Shown: piece after piece, positions 1-24,924 of the stretch
Layout: every line of letters starts with the position of its first letter
Numbering within the stretch: the stretch's first letter is position 1
Source: Cyanophora paradoxa CCMP329
Lineage: Eukaryota > Plantae > Glaucophyta
Direction of reading: 5' to 3'
DNA length: 53,265 nucleotides
Assembly: GCA_004431415.1 (NCBI GenBank)
Contig: QPMI01000051.1
Coordinates: 1 to 53,265, forward strand
Position numbers and translations under genes: made by a program
The notes under the pieces: model-generated
Database searches by the model: none
What the model was told of the DNA's origin: nothing
What the model saw: only the letters and a program-made list of their open reading frames with translations

Positions 1-3000
1 AGAGAGCTTACTTCTCTCAATCTCAGCAGTTCTGAAACTGTAAACTTTGGCTCTCAGACCTACATACTCCAATATGCAGAACCTGGCATCTCATTTTTTA
101 TTTACCTGGGTCATTCTGGAATCACCTCAAGGTCTAATGCATAAGATATATTCTCTATCTTTTGGAATGGTCTTAGATTCAATATATAGACAGAAGGAGT
201 CAGTATCATGGAATAGTAACTTTGCTTTTGTCCATTGGGACCTTACAGTATCATAGAAGAACTGGTAATTATGCAGTTTGGCTGCATCCAAAACATAAGC
301 CCCAATTGCAACAGGCTTATCTAGTTTCACATGCTTTGTGTAAAACTCAAAGGCAACTGCTTTTTCGTTATGGGGCTTGTTGATTTCACCAATGGGGAAG
401 CTGCATATTTCATAAATAGTTCTCACTGTTGCAATCTTAACACAGATCTACCTCTGCAGATTCAATGCATTCCCATAGATTGAATTATTCATGAGCTTGT
501 AGAGAATCAGCCTCGAATTTATTCACTGCTTTCCTTCTCATCAGTATTCAGCTCAATATAGGGTTTCATTACAGGAGCCACAGTAAATGATAGGACCCTG
601 TGAACTTTTTTAATTTCACCCCTTTGTCCAACAGATATTAGGAGAGGCTCAGAAATCACATAGTTTGGTCACAGAACCAAAGGTTGCAGTTAGCTTTGGG
701 TTTTATCAAGCTCTTCTCCTGAAGATCTAATAGGCTTTTTGATATTGTGATAATTCTGCATATTCTACTATTTTCTTGTTAATAATTAGGGGGAAATCAC
801 TGTGGTCTAGATATAGCCTAATTGGGTAATCCAGATCAAACTTCCAGGAAACTGGATCTGTTATCTTGTGGGTTGAATTCGGTCTCCCATCTAAAATCAC
901 CAACTGGATTGGCTGACTCAAACAGTAGCCATACAAGTTGTTAGCATCAAAAGCATAATATGGGAGTTCTCACCATCAGCCTCAGCATACCTACAAGGCA
1001 TTGTTGCAAAGCCACCCCTGATTCCCCTCTCAACAAATTCGTATTGCTCTACATCACTTATAAGCTCTATTTTTGCCTTGGTGGTCCTAAGCATAGCATC
1101 CCAAGATAACCCAGGTGCAGATACATAATGAACTGGGTCAAGTCCATATACTGAGTGTGAAAGCCTTCTGAAGCTTGGAATTTGTTCATTAACTCATCTA
1201 CATCAGCAGCTCCAAATCCATGAAATTACTTGCATCAATGAACTTGTAAAGACCCATTGCAATGAAAGGTATTGATCAAAGTTTTTCGAAAGGATTTCGA
1301 TTCGCTTTTTATCACCCATGCCTGCTATTTTCTGAAAATGAATGTCCCACAGTCATCCATTTGGTCAACAACACTGCTACTTTGTTTGCTTTGAGATTCT
1401 CCTATGGAGATTGCAGTTTCTGCATGCAGGAGCAATATAATGACCTGTGTGGTGATCATGATCCCTGCATTTGAAGTTCTCTTGTGAACCTCTCACTGCA
1501 AAGGTAACAGTGTTTTAGTAGCCCTGTAAACAGCCTTTTGCTCATCTGTGAGTTCATTCATGGGAATATTGGTAAACAGGAAGTCAATTAGCTCTCTTGC
1601 TTTGGATTCCAAGCATTCAAACAGACCTCCCATTGGATCCTGACCCTCAAATCGAAAATCTTGAACATCTGCCCCAGTGACTATTCTAATGTTGACTGCT
1701 GAGACTTCCCTCTTGGATTTCGATGCATCTATGGGATGCTTCTATGTTCAATCTTGCAGTAAACAAACAGGAAGCCAACAGTTTTCCTGAGGTTTTTCAG
1801 TCCAAACTCTATGGTGGTCTCAGGTTTTGGTGTGATTCCCTTTGAGAGTCTCCAATCAATGCATCTGTTTGAGTCCACATGAGCAGTGAGTTTAGCCTCA
1901 GACCTGAATCGAGATAAGCATGTGTCACAGTAGTGTAACTTCTGATCATTGTATGTTTCATGGTTTACTTTCAATAGCCTTGAAAGGGACATGATTGTAA
2001 TATAGTGACCATTCCCTTCATCATCAAATATCAGCATGAGATTAACCTTATGCTTTCTGCCTGGGTTACTTGATTGATGCAGGGGATAAATAACCTCTCC
2101 ATCGATTCCAAATATATTAATGCTAATGCCTGCATTTTGAGCCTCGAATTTATCAATAATATCAGCATCACAGGCAACAGGGAATGGGATGTTATCGAAA
2201 TTGAGAGCCAGCGGATTATAAGCGATTGCTGAGTATTTCCATTTGCGATATTGTGAAAGCTCATTCCTCTTATGGAGTTTATCGCTTTTCTGTGAATATA
2301 TGCCAAAATTGCATTTTCGAAGCAGGAATCATCAATATTTCGAATATTTACTGTGGCTCTCTTCCTAGCAATCCACTCTGGGGTTTGTAGAAAGCATCCA
2401 CCAGTTGGAGCATAACTCATAATAGCCACTCTGAGTATTTCAATTCTTTCTAAGCGATAGCTATCAACCACATTCATCTGCTCCTGACACATTTGGGCTG
2501 CTTTATTCAGCTCAGTTCGAATATTTCTCGACCTGGTTAATACAAGTAATCACTGTAAATGTATTTCGATATCCAAACCTGTGGATTGCTCACTTTAACG
2601 AACTTGCAGATAAAAGACAAGCGAACCTTGATTGCCCTGAATTGATCTAAACCCTGCTTTAATCGATTTGGAAGGGATGTAGCAATTCTGTCCAGGAATT
2701 CAATCACATCTACAACAACTTCCCTTCTGGCTCTGTAAGTGAGCCAGCGATATAATTCATTCATGGCTGTTCCATCTTCTGCCTCTGGTTCTATTTGCCT
2801 AGCCTATCCAATTCATCCAAGGTTTCAATTTTATCATATAGGTTATTTGCTTTTCTGGTTAATCTGCTAAAGTGGGTCTGCCCTTTGCAATTAAATCTAT
2901 TTCCTCATATTCAGCCTCTGTAATTTCATGGCTGCATAAGTGTTCCCAGCAATCCCATGAGTTCCCATTTCTTTCCCTTATGAGTTTGTTGGTAATTCGG

Positions 3001-3005
3001 GGCAT
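1..3005 (-). CDS. polB: Protein-primed family B DNA polymerase (Polinton type), fragmented by many frameshifts and truncated by the window edge
   Basis: Minus-strand motifs read across frames: YAFDANNLYG (motif A, ~930-958), YKLMNNSIYG (motif B, ~470-503), FHDTDS (motif C, ~195-215), YGLDPVHYVSAPGLSWDAML (~1090-1150), ERGIRGG, EYVGLRAKVYS. The N-terminal part has GGCFLQTPEWIARKRATVNIRN..CF (OTU-like), a C2H2-type finger and an endonuclease-VII-like RDHDHHTGH..ACRNCN. The start ATG at 3005 is inferred. Confidence 0.93.
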
Positions 3006-3156
3006 TATTCCTAACTTGTTCCTATTCTAAGGGGATATTTTATTTTAGGATGTTCTAAACGCAATTTAAAATGTTTTAATGGATCCACTGGCTTCCTCTG
3101 AATGGAATCGCAAAAACCTATTAATCTAAATCGGGATTTCGGTTTTTGTAAATTGA

Positions 3157-3414
3157 CTATCCAAGGTTCAAAGAGATACATGTAATATGCTTCTTGTTCA
3201 TTAGGTCTTCATGCCCACCCTTCTTACTTGAATACAGGACTGAGAACTTCACATCAGAAGCCTTGCATAGGTCTGCTGTAGATGGCATTTGACCTGATTT
3301 GTGTTGTCTCCATCTTTTTTGAAGTGGCTGTGAGGTTCTTCCTATGTAGACTTTGTTCATTTCCTGACTCTCAATCATATAGATCGATCCAGAATCATGA
3401 TCTGTTCCAGCCAT
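3157..3414 (-). CDS. GIY-YIG endonuclease (short; C-terminus probably frameshifted)
   Basis: GSIYMIES...KVYIGRTSQPLQKRWRQHKS is the canonical GIY..YIG..R..QH pattern. Confidence 0.85.
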   Translation of the reverse strand: MAGTDHDSGSIYMIESQEMNKVYIGRTSQPLQKRWRQHKSGQMPSTADLCKASDVKFSVLYSSKKGGHEDLMNKKHITCISLNLG

Positions 3415-3465
3415 TTCTTACTAGTTACATATAAATATATTTTTCTATCTCTTAAATCATTTTTT

Positions 3466-3660
3466 GGTTGACTTAGTGGGTGGAGTTGAGGCACTTTTTA
3501 TTTCTTTTTAGGGCAGAGTCCTCTTTTAGAATCTGTGAAAAAATGAGTCAACTCCCCCCACTTAGTCAACCTAATCGATAAATAAACCATAAATAAAAGA
3601 CTGTTTGGGTCTTTTATGATAAATTTGAGTCAACTGTGAGTCCACTTTTGAGTAAACCTA
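3466..3660. repeat. Inverted-repeat/iteron block A (candidate origin or recombination site)
   Basis: GGTTGACTTAGTGGGTGGAGTTGAG (3466-3490) is an imperfect inverted repeat of GTCAACTCCCCCCACTTAGTCAACC (3547-3571). Further GAGTC(A/C)AC units occur at ~3625-3650. Homologous to block B. Confidence 0.8.
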
Positions 3661-6237
3661 AACTTCAACATCAGAGTCATAATCTGATGCATCAGGATCA
3701 GCAGCAGGTAGTTCTTGTTTCATCCTTGGATTAGCTTCTTCCTCAATGGTCTCATCATCTACAAGCTTCATCTTTCTGAATTCCTCAAATACTTGTGGGA
3801 ACAAGAAATGATAGTATTGTTTGCCATTTGTAGTTTTCACTTGGATATATGTACACTTCGCATTTCTGTATAATATCTGCGACTATTATAATCGTTTTTA
3901 TATTTGTTGCTGGTAATAACTCCTGGAACCATTTCCAGGTTTCCACAAGGCTACCAGACTTGCATTTATTCTCGGAAATTAAGCCTCGATCCACAAGCCA
4001 CTTAGTGAACATAAGAATGATTGGGGCGCATACCTGCTGGGCTAAATAGTATTTATTTGTAAGGGGTCTATCAGCAATCCAGTTCACATCCTCACAGTCA
4101 ACTTTGGTTCTCAAATAGTGGGCAATGTTTCGAATATTGCAGTGATCATTTAGCCATTTTACAAGTGGAAGGAAGTATGACCTATCCTTTGCGAATTTCT
4201 TACTAACTTCAACAACCACAAATCGCCTATCTCCAGCTTCAATTTTTACTGGAATGTTGTTATTGCTGGTGAATATAATCCTGGCAAAGTTGCTTTTTGT
4301 GTATGAATCTATCCCTTTGTGTTCAATTACAATCTTATCAGAAGTTATGAGATCTTTGAGCATATCATTATTTTCGAATGTGTCCTTGCCTGAGGCTTCA
4401 TTGACAACAATCAAGATCTTATCCTCTCTATGGGCAAATCGACCAAACAGATCCTCTTTTGGCTTACCAGTTGCATAACTCAGGGCATCTCCAAGTATCT
4501 TCTTTTGGAAAGTATCAACCAACACATTCTTACCAGTTCCCTGTTCACCAATGAAGATTAAGGATACTCCATTGAGTTCCCCAGGCTTTGCAGCATGTGG
4601 GCAAACCATTTCAACAGATATTCATAGGTATTTGATCCTCACCAGACATTAAGAACAAGTGATCAAGGAACAGGCTTAATCATCTCAGCAGTTACATCCT
4701 CTGGAGCATTTTCGAATTGCTGATGGTCGACCTTCATTCCTGGATAGAGATTAAATACAGGACTTGCATTTTGCACTGAGAGTAGCAGGAGGTGGGAGGA
4801 AATCCATGTAAGTTGATCTTGTGGCTGTTGGATCCACAATCCATTTCCTAAATGATTGCTCCCATTTCTCTTTCTCATTATCTGTCCCCATTCACAATCA
4901 CCTTATGCATCAATGTGGGGAAATGCTTGTAGACAGTTTTCCAATGTCTTTGGGCATCCAGCAAAAGTAGTTGTTCATCCCAGAGCATCACACAACCAAC
5001 ATTTTCAACATGATGCATGCGAGCATTGAAATACCTCTAATGCACATTGTAATGTTCAGCCAAGGAGGGATACTTGCAGTCTTGTAATCGATTTCATCTG
5101 TGTCCTCTGGTAGGAATGCATACTTTTTGGGGAAGAGTTCCTTGAAAAGCTCATTGTTATCTTGCTCAACCAATAAACCAAGGATTTGAAGGTCAACACT
5201 TTGCCAGGCTCAGCCTTCTTCTTGCTTCTGCGAAGCTGTGTAAACTTCTCCTGGCATTCATCATAATCACTTGTCACTCTGTTCTGAGAATTGGTGGAAG
5301 AGTTCAGCTTGCATTTTAGGGGTAAATTTGTTGTCTTCCCCAACATTGATGATGACCAGTCCTACATCAATCAAGTTTTATACTCATTAGCTCTCTCACC
5401 ATTCAGACCATTATAACACTTTGTAGCAGTTCGAAAGTAACAGGATTTTCGGGTTCAGTGTCTTTTTCAGCTTCTACCTTCTCAGTCTTCACTTTATCAC
5501 TTTTTGGCTCCTTTTTAACTGGTTTTGGCTCAGGGCTATAATTTGCAATGCAGAAATATTTGATTCATCCACAAGTTTAGTAGTAGCTGAGAAGTAAGAT
5601 ACAAAGAAGTCCTCATTTCGCATTAACACTTTGTCACAGTCAACGAATTTCTTAAAGCAAACGTTTTTATCAACATCTTTTTTCGACTTATTTTGAGCAT
5701 CCAGAGTCTCACCTTTGCAGCAATTGAGGCAGATTAGGTTCTGTGTGGAGCTGTAAACTCCACTGTCATAATCCTCATTTTTCACCAATCCCATCGCTTT
5801 GAAAAGCTTGGGGATATCTTCATGTTTGCATGCAAGCGATTTAATAATAAAGTGGGCTGAATCTTGAACTTGGTGACATCCTCCTTAATCAAATAAACCC
5901 TTCTATGGCGAACTGCAACAGCAATATCGTTAATAGAAGTGGTACCAGATCGCTTCCATAGCTTATCTCTCATCTCTCTTACAACAGTTTCCGCCTCAGC
6001 ATAGTTATCAGCAATGTTCTCCTTCAAATCAGCGAATTTATCCAGGTCCAGGTAAACTCTGGTCACTTGCTCAGGTTGAATGCATTCAGCCCAGGTCTTA
6101 ACTTGCTATTATCAATGGCTTCAAGGGCATCTTCGGCAGAATCAAATACATGGGTGACCTTGTTGCGATCACCAATGAGAGTACTAAGGAATGTAGCATT
6201 TTTCAACAGGGGTGGCGAATTTCTCGATTTTGTTCAT
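3658..6237 (-). CDS. D5-like AEP primase - PriCT-2 - superfamily 3 helicase fusion (fragmented by frameshifts)
   Basis: RVYLDLD (AEP motif I) and DSGVYSSTQNL (AEP motif III); LTFKSLVYWVEQDN (PriCT-2-like); GEQGTGKN Walker A, ILIVVNEA Walker B, IIFTSNN motif C and DRRF in ORF 3785-4609. The start ATG at 6237 is inferred. Confidence 0.88.
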
Positions 6238-6419
6238 TTTCGATTTTGGGGACTTCTACCTTTAACGAAGAAAATAATTTCGGAAGGAGGAATTGTCTTT
6301 TAATATAATTCCTATTATTTGCAAGTCCTTAAGTAGTTTTGGGTCGGGATACTGTCTCGATATAGTAGGGTACAGTTTTTAAAAAAGAGGGAAGGAAAGC
6401 TGTCATTTTTTTGCTCCGA

Positions 6420-6790
6420 TCAAATCGATTTCTACAAAATTTGTTTCGATCGAGAATTTATTCTTCGATATATTTCGCGAGGTCTTCCAACCGGTTTATG
6501 CTCTTTGGGTTTCTTGGGCTGTTCATCTTTCTTCTTGTGGTAATATTCCAGCGCTTTGCCTTTTTTTGCTCCGCGATATTCCTTCATTTTTCCACTGTTT
6601 TCCTCTGGTGTCTGAGGGCAATCTTTTTGAGTTCTTTCTGGTGTGTGAACTGTAGCGGCTCCTTGGGATAATCGTTCCTGCTTCTTTTTATGATAGGCTT
6701 CGCGTTTTCTTGGGCATCTTGGCTCCCTTTTCAGTCTCGAAGCTTCTCTGCTTTTTCATCATCTGTGAGTATCTTGCGGATATTCGGCAT
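6420..6790 (-). CDS. Small Lys/Arg/Glu-rich hypothetical protein (frameshifted)
   Basis: ATG at 6790 (MPNIRKILTDDEKAEKLR...) preceded by TATTAAAG, followed by K/R/E-rich broken frames. End is approximate. Confidence 0.4.
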
Positions 6791-6936
6791 TTCTCTTTAA
6801 TAGTAGATACGAAAATATTTTTCCTCAATACAATCTATCTACTTTCCTTAAGTCATTTTTTGTTGCGAACACCAGTTCCTGTCTGTAAACTTTTATAGCT
6901 GCCTCCAGTGGCATAACTGAGACCGCTTTTTCTCAA

Positions 6937-7155
6937 TTATCTTATAGACCTGGGGTCCATTGCTACTTTCAGTAGGCAAATAATATTTAATTGTCTAGCG
7001 CTCTGGGTCTCTGCTTCCCTTTTTGGGCTTCTTCTGCGGATAGATAGGATGCCAGGGCTTGCTGCTTTTTTATACTCTCTATATGCTGGGTCCTCTCTAT
7101 ATCGTTTCTGCATTGCTAGAATGTGTCTAATAGACCTCAGTAACAGGTTCATCAC
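6937..7155 (-). CDS. Small basic hypothetical protein
   Basis: MQKRYREDPAYREYKKAA resembles the basic helical DNA-binding segments common in small viral ORFs. Boundaries uncertain. Confidence 0.35.
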   Translation of the reverse strand: MMNLLLRSIRHILAMQKRYREDPAYREYKKAASPGILSIRRRSPKREAETQSARQLNIICLLKVAMDPRSIR

Positions 7156-7173
7156 TGGTAAAACTCGATTAAA

Positions 7174-7447
7174 CTAATAGTGTCCTCCATTTATATTCCA
7201 GAGAAAAACGTTTTCTGGCTGGCAGAGAACTTCTCCTTGATACTCCTGTTGCTCATATGTATACTCTGTGGGGTCTGCTGGCATTGACTCCACAGAAATC
7301 GTAGACCTCCTTCTCTCTCTTGCTTCTGAGGCATTATCCTCAGTATCTGACAATCTCAAACTCCACTCTTGTCTCACAGCATCCACTGTGGCAATTGCTC
7401 ACCACATGCAGACTGAACATCTCGAAAAACTTTCGTATTATATCCAT
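7174..7447 (-). CDS. Small hypothetical protein with SNCHSGCC cysteine motif (frameshifted)
   Basis: ATG 7447 gives MDIIRKFFEMFSLHVVSNCHSGCCETRVEFEI, then shifts into the 7174-7386 frame. Confidence 0.4.
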
Positions 7448-7656
7448 GTCTCTAATAAAACAGAGATAATTAAAAGCCAAACTCGTCTTTTATATACTGT
7501 GGGAGCTACTCCCTTTCCTACTTCAGCTTTAGTGGCACCAGGTTCAATGGTTCCCTTCTGGGTCTTTGTTTTCATTTCATCTACTGCCCTGCTCATCGAT
7601 TTGTGTTCTCTTTCTTAGCAATAAACTGTTTATCTGGGACACCAGTAATGCCCATT

Positions 7657-8209
7657 TTAATAAACTTCCTTTCGAAGCATCTCCTTTAGCTTGGCTCTCT
7701 CTTTCTTCTCAGTAACATACTGCTCCAAGGCACTTGATTTGGCTTCCAGATCTTTGAGTTTAGCAGTCATCTCATCCCATTGAGCCTTGGGAATTCGATG
7801 AATATTTTGAGTGGGAGCAGTCTTATATGTGACTTCACCAGCCATAGACTGGATTACCTTGTCTGATTCTTTACTGAGACCCTCACCTTTGCGAGCCAGT
7901 GATAGATCTTGCAAGCCTAAACCTTTATCATCAGCAGCACCAATAATTCGCCTGGCTCCCGCTCAGCAACAGCCTTCATCTTTGAGGCTTCAGGTGAAAT
8001 GTTGGAGTTGGTCACTGGTTGAAGCCTGTGGGGCTTTGTCATCAAATGATTCCTCATAGGCAGCATTGAGGGGGTCTTCTTGTTGTTGAGAGGGCTTCAC
8101 TTCATTCATACCATTGAATTCAGTGGGTCTGTGTTAATGGATCCATTGTTTCCACCACCTGAATAGCCAACAGCCCCAGCTGGGATCCTATCTTTCGTTT
8201 GGGAGGCAT
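7657..8209 (-). CDS. Hypothetical protein with N-terminal PPKRK and C-terminal coiled coil (possible core protein; frameshifted)
   Basis: ATG 8209 MPPKRK preceded by TAATAAAG. ORF 7657-7914 contains the coiled-coil WDEMTAKLKDLEAKSSALEQYV. Confidence 0.45.
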
Positions 8210-8271
8210 TGTATCTTTATTAGAATGAGAGATAATTTTATAAACCGCGTTTATATCGCATCAATTTATTG

Positions 8272-9015
8272 CTATGGACTTGGCTTTTCACTTCTTTGGG
8301 GCTTCCTCTTTCTCTGGTGGTTTCAGTTCATCTTCTTTCTTTTTGGCTTCCTGTGGAAGCGAGGAAATGGGAAATCTTTCACAAGCTCAGCTTTATCTAC
8401 ATAGTATTTAACTGAGTAGTTTGCAGAGGACCAAATGATATACTGATAGGAGTGAACATACTCTTCAAACATCTTGTAGAAATCCTCTTTATTTCGCATA
8501 TATTGTATTCTTCCTCTATGGCTTCCAGTTCTTTGCGATTTGCAGCACTTAGAAACATTGCATAATCCGAATTTACTCGAATAGTCGAAGAGACTTTTCT
8601 TAGCTTTTGTGTGATGCAGATAATGGATATTTTCGAATGGCGACCTCTGGAATACAGAGATCCGATTATTTATCCCTTGTGAGATCGACTATCTCATTAT
8701 CGATTAAATCATCTAAAACCAACACAATTGGTTAACAGGTTCACCTTTCTCTATTTTCTCTTGCCTCTCATCTAGCAATTTAGCAATGTAAGGGGCATCC
8801 CATTTTCCCAGTTGCAGTGTTGCCACTTTATCCCAGAAATGATTGAAGCTGGTTCCACTCACAACTAATACAACATCAATCTTTTTGGCATCATGTAATT
8901 GCTTTAACCAATACTTTACAGCTTCTGATTTACCAGTTGCTGATTTTCCTATTGCCAATACACGAAATGGTGGTTCTATCATTTCACCAGCCACAAATTC
9001 ATCCAAATCAGTCAT
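8272..9015 (-). CDS. A32/FtsK-HerA family genome-packaging ATPase (frameshifted)
   Basis: PFRVLAIGKSATGKS Walker A. After a shift near 8715 it reads ..DDLI (Walker B) and GSLYSRGRHSKISIICITQKLRKVSSTIRVNSDY (the A32 RGRH..Q..R.N signature). End is approximate. Confidence 0.92.
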
Positions 9016-9080
9016 TGTTGTATATCTTTCTTAATAAAGACATATAAAAATAATGCAGGGAGACTGAAAATCGTAACAAT

Positions 9081-10450: not shown

Positions 10451-10503
10451 TATATTCTCTTTTATTATACTGCAACATAAAAAATCTACCAATGATCCTT
10501 AAT

Positions 10504-11512: not shown

Positions 11513-11541
11513 TCTTCTTTTATCTATATTTATATATTAAA

Positions 11542-14020: not shown

Positions 14021-14063
14021 CTTTTACTTATCAAGAATTTTATAAATCCATATAGTAAAAGCC

Positions 14064-17000
14064 ATGAGCTTCAATTACCCACCCAATCTAGAAACCATTC
14101 AAGATGATAATGCAAGCAGCACCAAGCATGTGAACTTTGATAATATTAAAGTAAAGGGTTCAGTTTCGATTGACCACAGCTCTGATAATTCATCAAAGAC
14201 TCAATCAAGGAGCATGCTTTATCTGTGAATCAAACCGATCCAGATAAAGAGGAGGTCAGTGTTGCTTTTAGTTTGGGTAATGTGAAAGCAAACCAAGTGG
14301 CAGAGATCAAAGCAACAAGAAGGAGACCTAGGAAACTAAAAACCAGTGGCACTCACCCAGATATACCTTCCAGGTTCGATAGTGGTCGATTGATTTTCAA
14401 TGTTCAAGATGAGCAGGGCAAACAGAACACAGCTTTGCGAATTTACAATGAGGGCAGCACTGCAAAAGCTGAGGTCCCCCAAGTATTGCAAGTGGGTCCC
14501 ATTGCCAACACAAATCAGGTCTCCTACACAAATGATGTCTACCCAAAGGATATTACATATGACTTTGCAAGGAATGAGCCTTTTGGGTTCTTTACTCCAA
14601 AAGATGTCCATCAAAAAAAGCCATCAATTACAATCAACAGTAGCCCCAGTCAACCAGTAGCAATCCATTTACATCCTGATTTAGTCGAAATGGATAGGCA
14701 CCTTTTGCCTTTGTATAGCAATGTGAAAGACCTTGGAATTCGAACCAGGCAATGGCGAAATATCCATGGCAGTAATGTGTATGCAAATGGTGAGAAGCTT
14801 GTAAGTGAGAAGACCATAAGAGAGATCTTTGAGTATTATGGACCTGTCCCAGTTCCCTTCCCTCTTCCATGGGATCCACCGGATTTAACACCAAAGAAGC
14901 AGCCTGGAAGAGAATACACAGCAACTGAAGATGTAGCCTTTGGGCAGCATATTGTTAGTTGGGAGCAAGTTCGCAATAAACCGATAATTGAACCCAGAAA
15001 GCAAATAGATGAGCAGTATTTACCTCCTGAAGTCGATATTTTAGAGCTTGATGAATATCAATTCGTTCCAGATGAGGAGGAGTATTTACCAGATGGTTTT
15101 GACCCACAAGAATATGAATATGATCAGTATGACCCCAATGAGGAGGAGATACTACCAGATGGCTTAGATCCTCAAGAGTATGAGTATGAGCAGAACTATG
15201 AACCTGATGAGGAGTATTTACCAGATGGTCATGATCCACCAGTTGTTGACTATGAGCAACCTTATGAACCCCATGAGGAATTATTACCAGATGGATTTCG
15301 ACCTGAGATCTGGGAGTTCTTTCCTGATTATGAACAAATTAATAATAAACCTGCAAAGTATCCCCCAGAGGATCACAATCATGATTGGGATGAGATCTTA
15401 GGCAAACCTCAAAAGTATCCACCAGAGGATCACAGGCATGATTGGGGTGAAATTGATGGGATACCTACTGAGTTCCCACCAAGCAAACATGAACATATTT
15501 GGGATGAGATCAATGACCAACCAGAATTTGCAAAGGTAGAGCCTCTTGATAACTTGGGGGTTTCTCTTTACCAGACTTGCAATGTCCCTGAAAGAATCTT
15601 TTTGAATGAACACTATGTACATGTGAATGGGACACTTGCGAATTCAGCTATGAGAGGACCACTTCATATTAGGACATTACCAGGCTCTTTTGAAACCCCA
15701 CCACCACCAGGAGCAACCATACCAAATATCTTTGTGTCAAGCTACATGGAGGCTGACATTCCCACAGATACATTCAGAGTCCCAACAGACCCAGCAACCT
15801 ACCAAAATTACAACTCTGCTATACAGGTTCATGTAGCAGATGTAAGCAGCTTAGATGGCTCAAGACCAATGATAGTATTCAGTCGAGATAAATATTCCTA
15901 CATTCCCATAGTGGGAACTGCAAATGATAACTATGGGAGGGCAGAGCTTGCATGGATTAAAACAAACTATGGTGGGGTTCTGGAAGCCAATCAGAGGATG
16001 GCTGCAAAGAATATTCACAATGAGACTATTTCGAGAGTGGTCACAGAGGATTACCTAACGGCTGTAATTCTCGTTAATTTCGTAACTCTTGCGATGCTTG
16101 GAAATTATGTAACAAAACCTGAACTTGCGGTGGAATTATCAAAATATCTCCCGCTTGTTGGTGGGACAATCACAGGAGATCTTACGGTTAATAGTAATAT
16201 TTACAGTAGCAACATAGAGACCAGCAACCTAAAAGTGAATGGAATTCTTACGGTTGGTTCATGTAATTTTAATACCATAAATCAACTTTACAGAGAATGG
16301 TATGATGTCCCAGCAAGCTTTGATCCAGCATTAAATATCTCAAATTGCATTTTTGCTTGGAAGGCATCAGGACAACCAGGTCAATCAGCAATGTTTACAA
16401 CTATAATAAGTAGAGTCCCAAATTCAGTTGTTCCAGACATGTTTATCTCCGGAGCCAGTTCCTATTACACCAATCCCGAAATCAACAACCAAATTAGTGT
16501 TTCAAACCCAACAGGCACTTTTTATGCATATACCTCTGCTGCAAGAACTATTGATTTCTCAAATGGGCTTACATTTTTCTTTGTGGGAAAATATCATCCA
16601 ACTACCTCTTCTATGCAAGTTCATTTGAGACTTTACAGAAGCGCCTCTCCATCACGATATTGTTATTATGGGGCAACATCTTCTACTGCTATTGGAATGA
16701 ACCAGTTTACTATTAATGGAGTATCCCAAACCCGCCCAGTTATTACGGTTCCTTCTTTAATAAATACATGGTATTACACTGACCAAACAATTACTCCCAA
16801 CAGCTACACAGTCGGGTTAAATGGAGTAGATATTCAAACACTTGTAGGAACGAATTATCTACCAGATAATACTGTCAATCATTTCGGATTTGGTAATATT
16901 GTGAATGGTGGTATTTCCGAGTTGATTGTTTTCAATAGGGCTTTGACAACTTCTGAAAAGAATGCTGTGAGGTATTACATTCAACAAAAATATGGATTCA

Positions 17001-20000
17001 CTCATACCCAGACTCTGAATATTTACAGAGGATTAAAAATAACCTCACCTGATACTGTAATAGATTACCTTACAGTTACAAGCAATGCAAATTTACCACA
17101 TCATCCAACCTCTAATGTGGTTCAAGGTTGGATTCAAAATCACACTCACACAAAAGCCCAGATTACAGATTTTGCCCATACTCACACAAAAGCCCAGATT
17201 ACAGATTTTGCCCATACTCACACAAAAGACCAAATAACAGATTTCGCCCATACTCACACAAAAGACCAAATAACAGATTTCGCCCATACTCACACAAAAG
17301 CGCAAATCACAGATTTTGCCCATACTCACACCAAAGATCAGATCACAGATTTCGCCCATACTCATTTATGGGAGCATATCACAAATCCTCCATTAACCTT
17401 CCCACCTGATTCACACACTCATGATTACTCAACAATAACCAATAGCAACCACAGACACCCTTGGAGCGAAATAGACGAAAAACCACGTTTTGCATCGACA
17501 GGTGATTTAGTAAATGGTGACGGATTTTATGGGGTCAGTTTCTACCAAAGTGATACCATCGCTGAAAGATTACAATTAAGTGAATACTATTTACACCGAA
17601 AAGGAATTGAAGCAGGCACCACAATGGAAGGAGAATTATACATTAAACAACCAACAAGAACAACATTAGTAGCAGCAGGTGGCGATGCATTAATAGACAC
17701 CAAACCGGGTATTTATCTTACAAGTTACTATAATGCGGATATCCCGTTAACAACAGGATTACCACCGCTACCATCTGATCCAGTGGGTTATAGTCATAAA
17801 GACGCCATTTTACAAGTAAACGTTACAGATGTAAGCGCAACTGATGGTTCACGTCCAAAAATTATATTTAGTCGCTCGAAATTCAATTACGTCCCACTTG
17901 TGGGACAACCATATGATGATCATGGTAAATGTGAGATGGCGTGGATTAAAACGACAACAGGTGGCGCCTTAGAAGTTAATCAGAGAATGGCGGCGAAAAA
18001 CTTACACAATGAGACCCTTTCAGGTGTTGTAACAGATGATTACATGCAAAGCAAAAATATGTAGATGATACACATACTCACACCAAAGATCAAATCACAG
18101 ATTTTGCCCATACTCACACCAAAGATCAGATCACAGATTTCGCCATTCTCATTTATGGGAGCATATCACAAATCCTCCATTAACCTTTCCTCCGGATTCA
18201 CACACTCACGATTACTTGCCTCTCACAGGAGGAACAATTTCATCAAATCTTACGATTTCATCCAATTTGAATGTTTTAGGAAAAATTCAAATTGGAGACA
18301 AAAATACAAACATTGATGTATACTATGATGCACCCTATTATCCTGTTACTTCTAATACAGACCCTGCTTCTACCATACCAAATTGCCTCTTAACAATAAG
18401 ATTAGATGGTGTCCCTGTTGGAATAAACATCAGTCATGCCTTCATTGCAAATAGAGCAACTTTGGCGAGTCCCTTTATTTCCGGAGTTACCTTTCCATGG
18501 TGTGGATTCAACACAATAACTCAATTGAGATCTGATTACAATAACCGAAACATTGCACAACAACCTACTTATTCATATACAAGCCGGGAATTTGGGATGC
18601 CGTATCCCGTAACTGTGGATTGGTCAAAAGGTATCACCATCTTCTTTGCAGGTTCTTATAGATTTTGGGGACCGTGGGTAGATCTCTTAAATTTTAGTTC
18701 ACCAGATGGAACTAATAAAGTATCCTTTGGGACAACAGGTAGCAGTATGGGTATACATTCTTATACAAGCAATGGTGTGACTTACCCAGCAGCACACTTA
18801 AATTATCCCACATCGTATTCTGAGTTGTCGCCGAATCATTGGGACTTTACAGTTTCTTCAAATGTCTGCACTTTCGGATTTAACGGACAAGATTTAGGCA
18901 CAGTCATTACAGAAGTGGATTATCTTCCACCTTCCACTTTTAGTAGGATGGGTGTTGCCTATTTCATTACGGCAGTAGGGGAATATATTATATTCAACAG
19001 AGCATTGACATTTGATGAAAGGCAAAAAGTGAGATATTATATGCAAGATTATTTTGGCTTTCCAAAAAAGCAAACAATCGTTATTCCTGATAATCTACGC
19101 ATTTCTGCTGAAAATGTTCATATTAGAAATTTAATCGTTTCTTCAAATGCAAGCATTCCAAACTATACCACATCAAATGTGGTTCAAGGTTGGATACAGA
19201 ACCACACACCTGCGTGGTCAAATATCACAGACAAACCATTAACATTTGCTCCTGATACTCACACTCACACAAAGTCTCAAATCACAGATTTTGACCATAC
19301 TCACACAAAAGCGCAAATAACAGATTTTGACCATAAACATGTTAAAGCAGATATTACAGATTTTGACCATACTCACACAAAAGCGCAAATAACAGATTTC
19401 GCACACAAACATGTCAAAGCAGATATTACAGATTTTGACCATGAACATACAAAAGATCAAATAACAGATTTCGCACATAGGCACGATTGGGACGAAATAG
19501 ATGAAAAACCACGTTTTGCATCGACAGGTGATATTGTTAATGGTGACGGATTTTATGGGGTGAGTTTCTATCAGAGTGACACCATCGCTGAAAGATTACA
19601 ATTAAGTGATTTCTATTTACACCGAAAGGGAATTGAAGCAGGCACCACAATGGAAGGAGAATTATACATTAAACAACCAACAAGAACAACATTAGTAGCA
19701 GCAGGTGGTGATACATTGATTGATACCAAACCGGGTATTTATCTTACAAGTTACTATAATGCGGATATCCCAGTTACAGGAGGATTACCACCGCTACCAT
19801 CTGATCCAGCAACTTATGATGACAAAGATGCCATTTTGCAAGTGAATGTAACAGATGTAAGCGCTACTGATGGTTCACGTCCAAAAATTATATTTAGTCG
19901 CTCCAAATTCAATTATGCAACTCTTGCGGGACAGCCAAAAGATGATTTCGGGAAATGTGAGATGGCGTGGATTAAAACATTAGCAGGTGGCGCCTTAGAA

Positions 20001-21410
20001 GTTAATCAGAGAATGGCGGCGAAAAACTTACACAATGAGACCCTTTCGGGTGTAGTCACAGATGATTATTTGCAAAGTAAAAACTATGTGGATGAAACAG
20101 AATTGGGAGTCGCACTTCAAACTCACAATCATTTATGGGAGGATATTACAGATAAACCTTTAACATTTCCACCATCCCTACATACACATTTATGGAGCCA
20201 TATTACGGATAGACCCACCTTAGCAACAGTTGCAACAACAGGGAATTATGATGATCTTATAAATAAACCAACATACACATCTCCCATTAACTTTGATGCC
20301 ACAAATGGTCTTTCCACAGATCGCACAGGTGATTGGAGATTTTTTACATTCATATCTCCTTACTCAGGAGCAAACACATGGGCTTCTGGTGATGAAGATT
20401 GTAGTAGCTACAAGATGTTATGGACTGTCCCCGCGGGAATGAAAACATGCTATATCTTCTACATGTGTCAATATAATAGCAGATACTTCGATGTTGTGGG
20501 AGTTTATCCATCAACGAATTCTTATACACTTTCGAGAGTAAATGCTTATTCTCCTGGTATTGACCCAAGTGTAGAGTATAGGCAATATGTCGGAGTGAAT
20601 TGTGAAGGGCTGAGTAAAGTGGGTGTTCAAGGGCGAATAGGAAGGATTTACCTTGTGGGTCTTGTAGGTTGGAGCAAGAACCCTGCTGTATCTTCACATA
20701 GTGGATACATGCATTGGGATAATATTTATGGGAAACCAACAGCTTCAACATCAGTTGGACCTCATTCCCACACTAAATCAGAAATCACAGATTTTGCACA
20801 TACCCATACAAGAGCGCAAATAACAGATTTCGCCCATACTCATACCAAATCGGAAATCACGGATTTCCCAAGTTTAGACCCGTTCACAGCCAATACGATC
20901 ACAGCAAATAATACCATGTATGTAGGATCGGGTTCAATAGTAACGCCCGCATCACCAACAAATGAGGAGACTTGGTTCTTCCACAATTCCACAAACTTTT
21001 ATGATAAAACCCTACTGTGTCGCGGAAATGCTTATGCGAGAGCATTTTATGCAATGAATGCGGGAACAACCAACACAATTAGCCAACTTCCAACATGGTA
21101 TGATATAGAAAGACGTTTCAAATCAGGAAAATACGAAGCTACAAGTGGTGTGATAAGCGCGGGTCAAACAACACAGCATGCATATGTTTTACATTGGAAT
21201 CCTGCTTTTTACACACAAACACCTGTTGTAAATGCCACACTTCAAGGAACTCCTGCAACAAACCCAGGGGATATAGATTTTAGAATTGGAATCTCAAACT
21301 CCACATCTAACTATACAACAATTTATGTGACATTCATAGCATCCCCTACTCTATCTTCAAGCCGAAGTATCACTTGCACAATCCATTGGACAGCATATGG
21401 AATCCCATAA
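14064..21410 (+). CDS. Giant modular fibre/adhesin-like protein (~2,450 aa if ORFs 14225-18064 and 18216-21410 plus a 14064 leader are joined)
   Basis: HTHTKxQITDF(A/D) and HxHxW repeats (phage-tail-repeat-like); three copies of a ~200-aa module; two LamG/ConA-like domains ending ELIVFNRALT..RYY; C-terminal F..TPVV..HWTAYG tail-fibre-tip-like domain. Comparing repeat copies shows single-base losses at ~18057 and ~18143. Confidence 0.8.
15045..15530 (+). repeat. Coding tandem repeats: 4x ~22-aa acidic (E..LPDG.DP..Y.Y) then 3x ~20-aa (KYPPEDH.HDW.EI)
   Basis: Directly visible in translation and DNA (TACCAGATGG recurs about every 66 nt). Confidence 0.85.
17140..17365 (+). repeat. 33-bp coding tandem repeat (HTHTKxQITDFA) x6; further arrays at ~18070-18145, ~19260-19480 and ~20760-20870
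   Basis: CATACTCACACAAAAG..CA.AT.ACAGATTT.GCC repeated with 33-nt period. Confidence 0.95.
17461..20093 (+). repeat. ~600-bp direct repeat pair (17461-18066 and 19487-20093), with a diverged third copy at ~15500-16055
   Basis: Both copies encode EKPRFASTGD..GFYGVSFYQSDTIAERLQLS..NQRMAAKNLHNETLSGVVTDDY. Many differences are synonymous. Confidence 0.95.
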
Positions 21411-21459
21411 TAAATGCATATTTCGCATTATTTTTCTTTCCTTCTTAGTAAAAGAAGCA

Positions 21460-22314
21460 ATGGGTGAATACAATCGAGTTCAACTGCCCATTTATTCGCT
21501 TGGATCGCCAGCTATGCACTTTCGACAACATGAAGTTAATGATGAAGTCCGCGGTTTAGAATCCACAGAGAGACCCAATTCTAATGGTAACTCCTTTGAT
21601 AAAAACTCGATAATTCGTGTAAAAGAACTCCGAGCCGATAAGAATTCGGGTGTAGTTAAAACCACACGACTACTTGTAACAAATGCTAACTTCTTTCAAC
21701 CGACAAATGGAGGTCCTGATGCATACAGTGTAGATTTAAAAGCCCTCGATTTCGATAAGAATACTGCTGCTGTTACTGTGAGATCAGGAGGAGCATTTAT
21801 TGGTGGAGGTTGCAGAGTTTCAGGTCAGCTATCTTCATCTGTTTCCTACAATGATGTCCCAGATACTCTCGAACAAAATGTGGAGAACCCACAACGAATT
21901 CGTTTCTACACACCTGTTGCACAGCAACCTTTTTTGCATTTCTATGTTGCATCCTCTGTAACTCTTGAGAATTCGGAATTAGTTTCCATTACAGGAACTG
22001 ATCGAGTAAGAAGAAATATTCCTCTTCCCACTGCAATGCTTTCCATGTGTAGAGCCAATAATAATCAACCAGGTCACAACTACTTATTCTTTGTTCAAGC
22101 TTCGAACCATTTTGGCAGAGGATATTGTGTTTATAACAATTTGACATTTACCTATGATCTGTTTGTCACTGAGGTTGGAGTATACAATACTATGATTATG
22201 GGACTGAGAACAGATATAGCAGCTGTATCAGCACTTCGTGGGGTAAATGTTGCTGATATATTCACAACAGGATTTTACCAAGAATTAGATGTAATTGATG
22301 ACCCAACCCCATAA
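21460..22314 (+). CDS. Putative virion/fibre-associated protein, paralog 1
   Basis: Intact ORF; likely start MGEYN at 21460 after TAGTAAAAG. Shares ELR.DKN.G.VKTT.LLVTNANF and SGGA.IG.G.RV.G with the next gene. Confidence 0.65.
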   Translation: MGEYNRVQLPIYSLGSPAMHFRQHEVNDEVRGLESTERPNSNGNSFDKNSIIRVKELRADKNSGVVKTTRLLVTNANFFQPTNGGPDAYSVDLKALDFDKNTAAVTVRSGGAFIGGGCRVSGQLSSSVSYNDVPDTLEQNVENPQRIRFYTPVAQQPFLHFYVASSVTLENSELVSITGTDRVRRNIPLPTAMLSMCRANNNQPGHNYLFFVQASNHFGRGYCVYNNLTFTYDLFVTEVGVYNTMIMGLRTDIAAVSALRGVNVADIFTTGFYQELDVIDDPTP

Positions 22315-22337
22315 AAGATATATCCCTTTAATGTAAA

Positions 22338-23174
22338 ATGGCAGAGGCACCCACACCAATAGAGCGAATTATAACACCACAGCTATCATTAGCTGCCCCA
22401 GCAAACCATGTTTTACAGCATGCTACTTTTGATGATGTGGAAGGTCTCCAATCCACAGAGGTCCAACCTACAATGAACACCTTTGGTTCCACCCACAAAC
22501 TGAGATTGCAGGAACTCAGATGTGATAAAAATAATGGAATAGTTAAGACAACTAAGCTACTTGTTACCAATGCAAACTTTTCTGCTCATTATGGAGACCC
22601 AGATAGCTATGGAGATCCTCTTTCTACTTATTCTTTTGAATCTAGGTCGGGAGCTATTAACTGCAAATCGGGGGGAGCTTATATTGGTGATGGTCTTAGG
22701 GTTGGTGGGGCTGTTGGAGCGCCTTTATTTGTGAATGATCAACCCAATCCCATTGATCCCAATACAAGAATTCGAACCTATGTCCCCAGCATGAATGCCC
22801 CCTATATAATCAAAATATTCCCCATTGTAGTAAATGAACAGACAGCAGTAATAGATTCTCTTGTTGAGATTGGTGACCACTACAAGGTTGTTGTGGATAT
22901 TCCACCAGATGTATATGCTGTATGTCAAGTGGAGGGTGGAACTCCTAATTTTGCAGTTGTGATCACCCCATATGATAATTTTGGTATTGCTTATCATGGA
23001 GTCAATTTCGGTTTGGAAGACTATCAGTTTCTGGTGAGAGCCACCAAGTTTGGTATCTACAAGTGTGTGATGTTTGCAGAGAGAACAGATTTTATTGCAA
23101 AGCAGAATACCTATGCTGAATACTATGGCACAAATCGATATTTCCCCATTTTTGGGCAGGATACTGCTCCATAA
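22338..23174 (+). CDS. Putative virion/fibre-associated protein, paralog 2
   Basis: Intact 278 aa; clear paralog of the preceding ORF. Confidence 0.65.
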   Translation: MAEAPTPIERIITPQLSLAAPANHVLQHATFDDVEGLQSTEVQPTMNTFGSTHKLRLQELRCDKNNGIVKTTKLLVTNANFSAHYGDPDSYGDPLSTYSFESRSGAINCKSGGAYIGDGLRVGGAVGAPLFVNDQPNPIDPNTRIRTYVPSMNAPYIIKIFPIVVNEQTAVIDSLVEIGDHYKVVVDIPPDVYAVCQVEGGTPNFAVVITPYDNFGIAYHGVNFGLEDYQFLVRATKFGIYKCVMFAERTDFIAKQNTYAEYYGTNRYFPIFGQDTAP

Positions 23175-23196
23175 GAATATTGGTTATATATAGAGT

Positions 23197-23469
23197 ATGG
23201 ATAGTAAAACAAAAAAGTTTATTGATGCTGCTATGACAGTCCATGGTAAAGATAAATTCGATTACAGTGAGACACATTACATCAAAGCTCAAGAGAAAGT
23301 ATCTGTTAGATGTTTGCAGTGTAATAAGGTGATCCTTACCTATCCCTTTAATCATGTGAAGGGATCAGGGTGTAGGGAATGCAACAAAAAGCACTCTCAG
23401 GCTTATAGGAAAAGGGCTACTTCATCAATTAGAGTAGAGTATAGGGATATTTGCATTAGGTTCGATTAG
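23197..23469 (+). CDS. Zn-ribbon protein (DUF723-like, as found in homing-endonuclease-associated viral proteins)
   Basis: FIDAAMTVHGKDKFDYSETHY...VSVRCLQC...PFNHVKGSGCREC pattern. No nuclease domain is attached. Confidence 0.7.
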   Translation: MDSKTKKFIDAAMTVHGKDKFDYSETHYIKAQEKVSVRCLQCNKVILTYPFNHVKGSGCRECNKKHSQAYRKRATSSIRVEYRDICIRFD

Positions 23470-23498
23470 GTTTAATTAATTTTTCTAAGGTATTCTTA

Positions 23499-23897
23499 AT
23501 GGAGACTCAATACAGAGGCTTTCATGTTATGCTTGATTACAAAGCTAAATCAGCTATAGCAACAGGATATGAGCATGTGAGCTTTCTAGGGAATTGGATA
23601 ATGGGAACCCTTGAACAAGCAGTATTAAGACAAGGCATTAGGATTGTTCATAAACACTGTGAGATATTTGATGGCAAAGTATCACCTCCTGGTTTTGCAT
23701 TGGTTCTGCTATTAGATGAAAGCCACTGTACAGCTCATTGTTATTCCAATGAAGGCATGTTAGCAATTGATATATTCAGTTGTGGTAAAGAAGCTCAGCA
23801 TAAAACACAAGCAGTAGCAGATGAGATCGATAAAACAATGAATTTCCTCACATTTGAGAAGACTGAGAGACATAAACATGATAGATTTCCGTTTTGA
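23499..23897 (+). CDS. speD: S-adenosylmethionine decarboxylase proenzyme, small prokaryotic type (pyruvoyl-dependent)
   Basis: GFHVMLD..PPGFALVLLLDESHCTAHCYSNEGMLAIDIFSCG, with the ESH self-cleavage site and the D.F.CG motif. Confidence 0.9.
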   Translation: METQYRGFHVMLDYKAKSAIATGYEHVSFLGNWIMGTLEQAVLRQGIRIVHKHCEIFDGKVSPPGFALVLLLDESHCTAHCYSNEGMLAIDIFSCGKEAQHKTQAVADEIDKTMNFLTFEKTERHKHDRFPF

Positions 23898-24136
23898 TGA
23901 GTTTCTATAATGATGATCAGGGTGATTTACCTTTTTGATTACAATAGCTTTCTACAATAATTATTTTCCGGATTCCGGACATTTTTTACGATAGAATTCT
24001 ACTGTATGATGAAGCCAAAATATGAATGCACCCTACATTTAGCAATGTCAAATAATTAGAATAATGTTCGATTTCCTTACACTAAAACCTCAGCATCTCC
24101 CCTTGATTCCCCCTATTATATAATATTTATATTAAA

Positions 24137-24575
24137 GTGGACTCAAGGTTGACTCATATTAATCGTAAAAGTAGTAATAGTATATGGATTTTGTTACGAA
24201 TTCAATGCAAGGGTTGACTAAGTGGGTTGAGTTGACTCAAATTTCACAGGAAATATTTGGGACCAAAAGTTTTCTAAAAAGGATTTCAAAAAATGTGTCA
24301 ACTCCCCCCACTTAGTCAACCCTGACCATAAACAGTAAGGATTTGAGCTAACAAGTATCACAAAGTGAACATTTTGAGTCCACTTAGAAGATCCACTTTT
24401 GAAATCCAAGTTGATTTTGCTTGAAATTTCAAAGTTGATCTAAAAGTGAGTCCACCCTGATTGATTATGGTAACAAAGTTGACTAAGTTGACTAAGTTGA
24501 GTCATCTTAAGAAATTCAAAGAGACTAAGAGTTCAAAATGTTTATGAAAAGTGAGTCAACTTAGACCACTTATGA
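24137..24575. repeat. Inverted-repeat/iteron block B
   Basis: GGTTGACTAAGTGGGTTGAGTTGAC (24212-24236) is inverted relative to GTCAACTCCCCCCACTTAGTCAACC (24297-24321, identical to 3547-3571). Many GAGTC(A/C)AC and GTTGACT units surround it. Confidence 0.85.
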
Positions 24576-24619
24576 TAACAAAGTTAAATATTTATTTGAT
24601 TTAATCGGAAAAGAACATG

Positions 24620-24848
24620 ATTTAATCGAATTTATTGATATAATTCCGATTAGATTCATTTAGGATTCAATTAAGATCAATCGAAGTTATTGATATAATT
24701 CCGATTAACTACAATTAAGATACAATATCGATTAATCGAGTTTATCGATATAACATCGATTAAATTAATTGAAAATGCATTTACAAATATGAAAATTCAT
24801 GTGAAAATTCAAATAAATTAATCGATTTTATTGATATAACATCGAATC
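24620..24848. repeat. Subterminal ~30-bp AT-rich direct repeats (4 copies)
   Basis: AATCGA.TT(T)AT(T/C)GATATAA(TTC/CAT)CGA at ~24622, ~24678, ~24732 and ~24818. Confidence 0.85.
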
Positions 24849-24921
24849 ACACATATGAATATTCATATTTTAATCCTGAGGCGGAACGCCGAGGGATTAA
24901 AATATGAATATTCATATGTGT
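24849..24921. repeat. Perfect 28-bp inverted repeat/hairpin at the virus-host junction
   Basis: ACACATATGAATATTCATATTTTAATCC (24849-24876) is the exact reverse complement of 24894-24921. The spacer TGAGGCGGAACGCCGAG contains a GGCG-GAA-CGCC mini-stem. Confidence 0.97.
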
Positions 24922-24924
24922 ATT

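What the first reader, a model, noticed from the sequence alone, without database searches (positions are those of the whole stretch)
1..24921. Near-complete endogenous Polinton-like virus with an unusual accessory gene set in a GC-rich protist genome
Seen: pPolB, AEP-SF3 helicase, A32 ATPase, MCP, two pentons, lipase, giant fibre and AdoMetDC in an AT-rich block joined sharply to GC-rich host DNA. Known: PLVs and Mavericks integrate in protist genomes. Inference: the lack of compositional amelioration and the intact ORFs in 11.5-23.9 kb suggest a recent, possibly inducible provirus; the gene combination may define an undescribed PLV group.
Basis: partly seen in the sequence, partly recalled or inferred. 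Interest (0 to 1): 0.8.

Follow-up and report, generated by a model that had tools for sequence, protein, structure and literature searches.

The report
Hairpin-ended Polinton-like virus in an alga
A 25-kb piece of a small DNA virus (Polinton-like virus) is inserted in a genome that is likely that of the alga Cyanophora paradoxa, where hundreds of such viruses are already catalogued, so it is mostly ordinary; its one notable feature is a fold-back palindrome at the very end, shared by many copies in one fixed orientation, which likely marks the end rather than acting as a flipping replication primer.

Summary
The element is real. Bases 1-24,921 (39% GC) hold a pPolB, an SF3 helicase, a packaging ATPase, a double jelly-roll capsid, a penton, a patatin-discoidin lipase, a giant fibre and an AdoMetDC-like gene, joined to 71% GC host DNA. 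The junction word is in 4 of 4 DNA runs at host depth.

It is not an undescribed discovery. The capsid is 60% identical to a published Cyanophora paradoxa endogenous-virus capsid (366 listed), and the accessory genes are tabulated for 156 glaucophyte PLVs. The group has no name in the papers I saw.

The left end and integrase lie outside the window. The left half is heavily frameshifted, likely from long-read errors: host DNA at the window's other end shows the same gradient. The fibre has three breaks.

- an invariant 73-nt terminal hairpin at 75-120 times host depth, in one loop orientation (one run)
- repeat clusters near that end
- a 69%-identical inverted relic of the subterminal region between the helicase and the GIY-YIG/pPolB genes

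Terminal palindromes are known from one preprint on another protist. Inducibility is untested. Interest 0.4.

The parts
1..3005 (-). pPolB (with EndoVII-like insert and zinc finger); C-terminus cut by the window edge; 26 frameshifts and 2 stops as assembled
3157..3414 (-). GIY-YIG endonuclease (first frame piece)
   Evidence: Pfam E 2.6e-9
3436..3648 (.). Internal degenerate inverted copy of the subterminal region 24,134-24,323; holds 5 GT(T/G)GACT motifs including an inverted pair
   Evidence: 68.6% over 191 columns, E 1.7e-10; score 135 vs shuffles 37+/-6; a short contig in run X4 carries part of it (table 7)
3661..6237 (-). SF3 helicase with a long N-terminal part, probably an AEP primase (motifs only); frameshifted
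6435..8260 (-). Broken small basic or coiled ORFs, unassigned; no integrase or protease hit
8326..9015 (-). A32-like packaging ATPase, frameshifted
   Evidence: Pox_A32 E 0.0017; PHROG E 2.3e-6
9084..10450 (-). [quoted passage not shown]
10507..11512 (-). Probable second penton, frameshifted (weak)
   Evidence: E 0.07; not significant
11542..12474 (+). Penton (minor capsid protein), intact
   Evidence: DUF5901 E 0.017; Atlas 0.97
12464..14020 (-). Patatin lipase fused to F5/8 (discoidin) domain, intact
14066..21410 (+). Giant fibre (~2,450 codons) with 36-, 57- and 66-nt repeats and ~2-kb duplicated modules; three frame breaks
21397..22314 (+). Orphan ORF (305 aa), paralogue of the next
   Evidence: 33% identity, E 3e-42; no Pfam, PHROG or Atlas hit
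22338..23174 (+). Orphan ORF (278 aa)
23197..23469 (+). Zinc-ribbon protein like domains of phage endonucleases
   Evidence: PHROG E 2.7e-9
23499..23897 (+). Class 1b AdoMetDC-like pyruvoyl decarboxylase, ESH cleavage motif present
   Evidence: Pfam E 2.8e-11; motif seen, its meaning recalled
24134..24570 (.). Subterminal cluster of 10 GT(T/G)GACT motifs with an inverted 35-bp pair 44 bp apart (origin-like)
   Evidence: 0.3 per kb elsewhere in the element
24621..24866 (.). AT-rich 55-bp tandem repeats
24849..24921 (.). Terminal hairpin: perfect 28-bp stem, 17-nt loop that folds further to a GAA tip; ends exactly at the junction
   Evidence: z -8.1; next-best perfect stem in the window 13 bp
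24922..25437 (+). Host flank; open frame running up to the junction, no Pfam hit

Best explanation
This is the right-hand 25 kb of an integrated Polinton-like virus, one copy of a many-copy family in what is likely Cyanophora paradoxa; it is likely intact in the cell, likely inserted by an rve integrase encoded beyond the window, and likely replicates as a linear genome by protein priming with its pPolB, with the terminal hairpin predicted to be a fixed end signal rather than a parvovirus-like primer. Shown: the gene set, the junction, the many-copy end, the precise end base, and one loop orientation (one run). Inferred: (1) the frameshifts are assembly errors (about 75%); (2) the integrase is rve (about 80%, from 85 rve and 0 tyrosine recombinases among 156 glaucophyte PLVs); (3) the provirus is kept silent by host CpG methylation; (4) after excision the pPolB terminal-protein domain primes at the ACACA end, while the primase-helicase loads at the GT(T/G)GACT repeats; (5) the ATPase packages the genome into MCP/penton capsids with a long fibre, and the lipase aids entry; (6) the AdoMetDC-like enzyme supplies polyamines. 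That it is a genuine PLV of the catalogued Cyanophora set: about 90%. The replication details: about 50%.
For: Junction contig starting at 24,894 with 0 differences in 4 of 4 DNA runs at depth 33.5-63.3; high-depth contigs tile the hairpin up to 24,921 and stop there; at least 6 other flanks begin at that end. Hairpin depth is 75x, 122x and 79x the flank in X1, X2 and X3, with no variant listed in 24,785-24,921. In X2 the word made of inner flank, stem and first loop base has depth 4400, equal to the word inside the palindrome (4400); a 50:50 flip/flop mix would halve it. Artefact reading: pPolB has 26 frameshifts but 2 stops (P=0.007 if decay gave 8 substitutions per indel, P=0.09 at 5, P=0.36 at 3; the ratio is assumed). 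Breaks rise toward base 1 (4, 10, 12 per kb), and a host coiled-coil gene shows the mirror gradient toward base 53,265 (4, 4, 8-10, 12-16 switches, no stops). PMC10120064 section 7 describes such artefacts in multi-copy EVEs. pPolB aligns from residue 1 of P0018 and keeps Cys and His motifs that I take, from recall, for the vOTU site described in PMC11161782. CpG observed/expected is 0.21-0.51 in viral genes vs 1.1 in host; C. paradoxa methylates CpG in repeats and viral genes (PMC12344493 passages).
Against: Only 28 letters of the junction contigs lie on the element side, under the tool's 31-letter rule for a bridge, and one run may be the source sample. No read evidence was obtained for bases 1-19,000, so intactness and the pPolB-helicase linkage are unverified. 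Frameshift sites are not enriched in homopolymers (58% vs 61% for runs of 3 or more). No integrase, left end or target-site duplication is in the window. The orientation test rests on two contig depths in one run. The preprint finds terminal palindromes mostly with non-pPolB replicases, which favours hairpin priming. Depth is not copy number and GC bias inflates it. AdoMetDC homologues can be arginine or ornithine decarboxylases. The species rests on capsid relatives, not on a host marker.
Confidence: 0.6

Rival explanations
1. Hairpin-primed replicon in transition. The ancestor was a primase-helicase PLV whose terminal palindrome primes synthesis. A GIY-YIG + pPolB cassette later landed inside its left terminal repeat, leaving the inner 200 bp as a diverging relic at 3,436-3,648. 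The hairpin still primes and is resolved asymmetrically, so it does not flip.
For: The relic starts 13 bp after the helicase frame ends and fills the gap up to GIY-YIG. The hairpin is invariant and folds almost fully. The preprint links palindromes to non-pPolB replicases and reads dual replicases as transient replacement states.
Against: One loop orientation in X2 is not what AAV- or poxvirus-type resolution gives (recalled). pPolB keeps its N-terminal part. The relic could simply be a second origin. The AEP domain is unconfirmed.
Confidence: 0.25
2. Bases 1-3,430 (pPolB, GIY-YIG) belong to another element or are a misjoin between sibling copies in a poorly covered contig end; the hairpin-ended element proper runs from about 3,436 to 24,921.
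For: An inverted repeat sits at exactly that boundary. The region is the most error-rich. Glaucophyte PLVs include pPolB (49), D5-type (40) and PIF1 (34) elements among 156; co-occurrence is not given.
Against: The repeat is only 69% identical and lacks the outer 560 bp and the hairpin. GIY-YIG starts 22 bp away, with no room for a second element's terminal repeat. GC and CpG values match on both sides.
Confidence: 0.15
3. The copy is dead: the frameshifts are real decay and the provirus cannot be induced.
For: Every gene in 1-11.5 kb is broken, including the MCP and ATPase, and the fibre has three breaks. This copy has two minority letters near its end.
Against: Few stops, a gradient toward the window end mirrored in host DNA, and intact genes from 11.5 kb on apart from the fibre.
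Confidence: 0.2
4. The AT/GC junction is an assembly chimera between a free virus or contaminant and host DNA.
For: Only 28 letters of element in the junction contigs; the window is error-prone.
Against: The same junction word is in 4 of 4 runs from different years at host depth, and other host-like flanks join the same end.
Confidence: 0.03

Closest known systems
Cyanophora paradoxa endogenous PLVs (PMC10120064 Tables S1, S2, S4; PMC12220804 Table S6)
   Same: MCP 60% identical to a listed capsid (P0001); lipase, discoidin-patatin fusion, tail-repeat fibre, AdoMetDC, pPolB, D5-type helicase and lack of protease all tabulated for this host group.
   Different: Those papers give counts only. 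I saw no group name, and 'hairpin' does not occur in either main text. GIY-YIG is rare there (5 of 156).
Halocafeteria seosinensis virophages and PLV subtype 4 with terminal palindromes (bioRxiv 10.64898/2026.07.28.741278)
   Same: Palindrome at the tip of the terminal region next to host DNA; primase-helicase; some elements with two replication genes.
   Different: Different host supergroup; 73 nt here vs 52 nt in their subtype 5; pPolB present here; one loop orientation seen here; inverted relic inside the genome.
Polintons/Mavericks of animals
   Same: The pPolB is of their type, with the EndoVII-like insert; many hits are insect proteins.
   Different: No animal Polinton capsid among the MCP hits; no Ulp1 protease or rve integrase in the window; extra SF3 helicase.
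Virophages (mavirus, Sputnik)
   Same: Double jelly-roll capsid, penton, ATPase, pPolB + SF3 helicase + GIY-YIG, integration in a protist.
   Different: The capsid model fits PBCV-1 and iridovirus (TM 0.53-0.56) better than Sputnik (0.45) or mavirus (0.42); no protease found; helper dependence unknown.

Membership tests
Polinton-like viruses | [quoted passage not shown] | tested here: met
   60% identical to P0001, whose model (pLDDT 58) matches PBCV-1 capsid at E 4.8e-16
Polinton-like viruses | Single jelly-roll penton | tested here: met
   Atlas 0.97 to penton clusters, DUF5901 E 0.017; fold attempt failed
Polinton-like viruses | A32/FtsK packaging ATPase | tested here: met
   Pox_A32 E 0.0017 and Walker A on frame pieces; below Pfam's cut-off
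Polinton-like viruses | pPolB or primase-helicase replication gene | tested here: met
   both present; AEP part by motif only
Polinton-like viruses | 14-40 kb genome with terminal inverted repeats | tested here: inconclusive
   at least 24.9 kb; left end outside the window; no genome held
Polinton-like viruses | Integrase (rve or tyrosine recombinase) and target-site duplication | tested here: inconclusive
   no hit among window ORFs and pieces scanned; left end missing
Polintons/Mavericks (strict) | Capsid in the Maverick-Polinton cluster | tested here: not met
   none among 6 hits; C. paradoxa has 0 in those columns of Table S4
Polintons/Mavericks (strict) | Ulp1-like protease and rve integrase | tested here: inconclusive
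   not found in the window; 0 proteases and 85 rve among 156 glaucophyte PLVs
Virophages (Maveriviricetes) | Virophage-type capsid and maturation protease | tested here: not met
   fold ranks NCLDV-type capsids first; MCP-VIR 0 and protease 0 of 156
Virophages (Maveriviricetes) | Dependence on a giant virus | not testable with these tools
   needs infection experiments
Palindrome-ended PLV/virophage subtypes (Halocafeteria preprint) | Palindrome at the element tip next to host DNA | tested here: met
Palindrome-ended PLV/virophage subtypes (Halocafeteria preprint) | Non-pPolB replicase in place of pPolB | tested here: inconclusive
   helicase present, but so is pPolB; their linkage was not checked by reads
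Named PLV groups (GKS1-3, SP, Trimcap, PgVV, PaM and others) | Capsid clusters with the group | tested here: not met
   C. paradoxa counts (272 + 94) stand under 'Iterative HMM searches', not under a named heading in the header row I saw; only 2 of 156 hit the MCP-POL profile; I built no tree

The most novel reading that the evidence does not exclude
A glaucophyte-specific PLV lineage caught switching replication systems: a hairpin-ended primase-helicase virus that took up an animal-Polinton-type pPolB cassette inside its terminal repeat. Its tens of copies keep the hairpin invariant and unflipped, which points to an end-processing mechanism unlike both protein priming and parvovirus or poxvirus resolution, and its AdoMetDC drains SAM to escape host CpG silencing.
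Probability: 0.15. Interest if true: 0.7.

Novelty: new member of a known kind. Interest (0 to 1): 0.4.

Why it matters
As a PLV copy it adds little: hundreds are catalogued in this host. The ends matter more. How PLVs and virophages replicate their termini is open, and a 2026 preprint proposes hairpin priming from one protist. This family offers a second host lineage with many near-identical ends in a cultured alga that has public reads and a methylome. The loop orientation and the internal relic give direct, cheap tests of that model.

Tried and rejected
- No whole genome is held, so the left end and sibling copies could not be read. No read evidence was obtained for bases 1-19,000.
- No RNA holder was listed. 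Run X15 (RNA by guess) had no depth in 12 of 12 bins over 19,000-23,811 while host genes were covered; this is not used as evidence.
- IMG/VR scans: capsid alignment, 90 candidates, none related; hairpin pattern, 0; pPolB piece, none; P0018 gave 1 locus, L001, a PLV with a 30%-identical pPolB whose capsid I did not compare, set aside.
- JGI metagenome scan with P0008: 162 candidates, none related. Two alignment-based scans could not run.
- P0003 (bacterial repeat protein) was dropped from the capsid hits as spurious.
- Exact look-up of 9 window proteins: 0 of 9 in the collection.
- Rfam on 1-26,000: 0 matches.
- The penton fold failed. The Atlas gave nothing for the 305-aa orphan. AEP was not confirmed.
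- Homopolymer enrichment at frameshifts: none.
- Earlier scan findings: none in 3 look-ups.
- No capsid or pPolB tree was built; reference sets of named PLV groups were not among my fetched sequences.
- A giant-virus fragment was rejected: compact PLV gene set, pPolB-type polymerase, precise shared end.
Full report
Observation. Bases 1-24,921 are 39.4% GC and the rest of the window 71.1%, with the step inside 50 bases. The gene list is mostly right. The pPolB aligns from residue 1 to 1010 of a 1083-residue relative at 48% identity and is cut by the window edge. SF3 helicase, GIY-YIG, patatin-discoidin and AdoMetDC have clear Pfam hits. The ATPase is supported on frame pieces. The capsid is 60% identical to P0001, and the model of P0001 matches PBCV-1 and iridovirus capsids best. 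One penton is supported, the other only weakly. The AEP domain rests on motifs seen by eye. The fibre is one gene of about 2,450 codons with three frame breaks, so the 'intact' half is not wholly intact. No integrase or protease was found among the ORFs and pieces scanned.

Host. The only close capsid relative is a Cyanophora paradoxa protein. The host side is GC-rich, has introns and carries a kinesin-associated protein gene. All 24 listed runs share one organism label, and 14 hold at least half of the sampled words. The host is therefore likely C. paradoxa; I did not test a host marker.

Junction and copies. In 4 of 4 DNA runs a contig starts at 24,894 and runs into host DNA without a difference, at depth 33.5-63.3. 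Only 28 letters lie on the element side, under the tool's 31-letter rule, and one run may be the source. But the first word straddles the junction and high-depth contigs tile the end up to 24,921. Those contigs are 75, 122 and 79 times deeper than the flank in three runs. Depth is not copy number and GC bias inflates it, so I say tens of elements. At least 6 other flanks join the same end. This is what precise, repeated integration gives.

Frameshifts. Every gene left of 11.5 kb is broken. The pPolB has 26 frameshifts and 2 stops. Under decay with an assumed 8 substitutions per indel, about 9 stops are expected (P=0.007); at 3 per indel the test is not significant. Breaks rise toward base 1, and a host coiled-coil gene shows the same rise toward the window's other end. 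PMC10120064 reports such artefacts in multi-copy elements. Against this, the breaks are not enriched in homopolymers, and no reads were laid on this half. I put artefact at about 75%.

The ends. The element stops at a 73-nt palindrome with a perfect 28-bp stem (z -8.1); the next-best stem in the window is 13 bp. No variant is listed across it, though there are three just upstream. In run X2 the word that ties the inner flank to the first loop base is as deep (4400) as the word inside the palindrome (4400). The loop thus lies in one orientation, whereas AAV- or poxvirus-type resolution would give two (mechanisms recalled). The matching rows for the other runs were not shown. Inside the end lie 55-bp repeats and ten GT(T/G)GACT motifs. 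An inverted copy of 24,134-24,323 sits at 3,466-3,648, between the helicase and GIY-YIG genes (68.6%, E 1.7e-10). It is too diverged to be the working left repeat; it is a relic or a second origin.

Mechanism. The most likely reading is a silent, probably intact provirus that entered through an rve integrase lying beyond the window. After excision it would replicate as a linear genome by pPolB protein priming, helped by the helicase at the repeats, with the hairpin as a fixed end signal. CpG depletion (0.21-0.51 vs 1.1) fits life in a host that methylates CpG in repeats and viral genes, but many viruses are CpG-poor (recalled). The main rival is hairpin priming with asymmetric resolution and late capture of the pPolB cassette. 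The AdoMetDC-like protein likely feeds polyamine supply; homologues can act on arginine or ornithine. An anti-methylation role is speculation.

What is known. PMC10120064 lists 366 capsid genes in C. paradoxa (272 + 94, 7.3% of the genome), including P0001 and a paralogue that looks closer to this one by eye. PMC12220804 Table S6 gives, for 156 glaucophyte elements: rve 85, tyrosine recombinase 0, protease 0, pPolB 49, D5_N 40, lipase 89, AdoMetDC 66, GIY-YIG 5. AdoMetDC also occurs in Cryptomonas and Rhodomonas PLVs. Its text names discoidin-patatin fusions and tail repeats in these elements. The Halocafeteria preprint reports terminal palindromes, dual replicases and a hairpin-priming model. 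I found no paper that names the Cyanophora group or describes its ends (searches; term counts). Zenodo data, figures, the cut part of one supplement and the preprint's supplements were not seen and may bear on this.

Papers seen. PMC12220804: passages and supplement rows (S6, S11, S12, end of S5). PMC10120064: passages, sections 7 and 9, supplement rows. Halocafeteria preprint: passages and section 7. PMC12344493, PMC9992855, PMC11161782: passages only. All others: search listings only.

Verdict. A real, probably young endogenous PLV of a catalogued but unnamed glaucophyte lineage. The terminal hairpin and internal relic are the parts worth following. Interest 0.4.

Noticed in passing
window 24,886: In 4 of 4 DNA runs one contig joins foreign sequence to the tip of the hairpin loop: a copy elsewhere broken or invaded exactly at the apex, as hairpin-tip cleavage would leave.
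   Followed up: no
window 24,922-25,437: An open frame of about 170 codons runs from the junction into host DNA, with no Pfam hit; the virus may have interrupted a host ORF.
   Followed up: partly
window 30,859-30,916 and 37,878-37,935: A 58-nt inverted pair, 97% complementary, 7 kb apart in host DNA; perhaps two copies of a small repeat or transposon ends.
   Followed up: no
window 46,900-53,265: Host coiled-coil gene with 28-34 frame switches and no stops, rising toward the window end: assembly quality falls at both ends.
   Followed up: yes
window 21,397-23,174: Two paralogous orphan ORFs (33% identical) in a region of much higher summed depth than the fibre; no family hit.
   Followed up: partly
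window 14,066-21,410: The fibre shows many joints and lower depth among copies: repeat number and modules seem to vary between family members.
   Followed up: no
window, 40 bases upstream of 12 viral genes: TATAT or ATATA upstream of 9 of 12 genes against 3.4 expected from shuffles; motif chosen after looking, a lead to a promoter signal only.
   Followed up: partly
proteins P0002, P0004-P0008, P0018: A capsid at 38% (Logan) and a metagenomic sister clade at about 27% (ENA contigs of 1-12 kb), plus a pPolB at 48%, suggest relatives outside this genome; their DNA could not be fetched.
   Followed up: partly
window 25,441-32,500 and 42,368-43,800: Host genes: a UvrD-like helicase with a long C-terminal region, and a kinesin-associated protein.
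   Followed up: partly
L001 1-14,451: An IMG/VR contig with a 1487-aa pPolB and capsid-, penton-, ATPase- and GIY-YIG-like ORFs by eye; a separate PLV.
   Followed up: no
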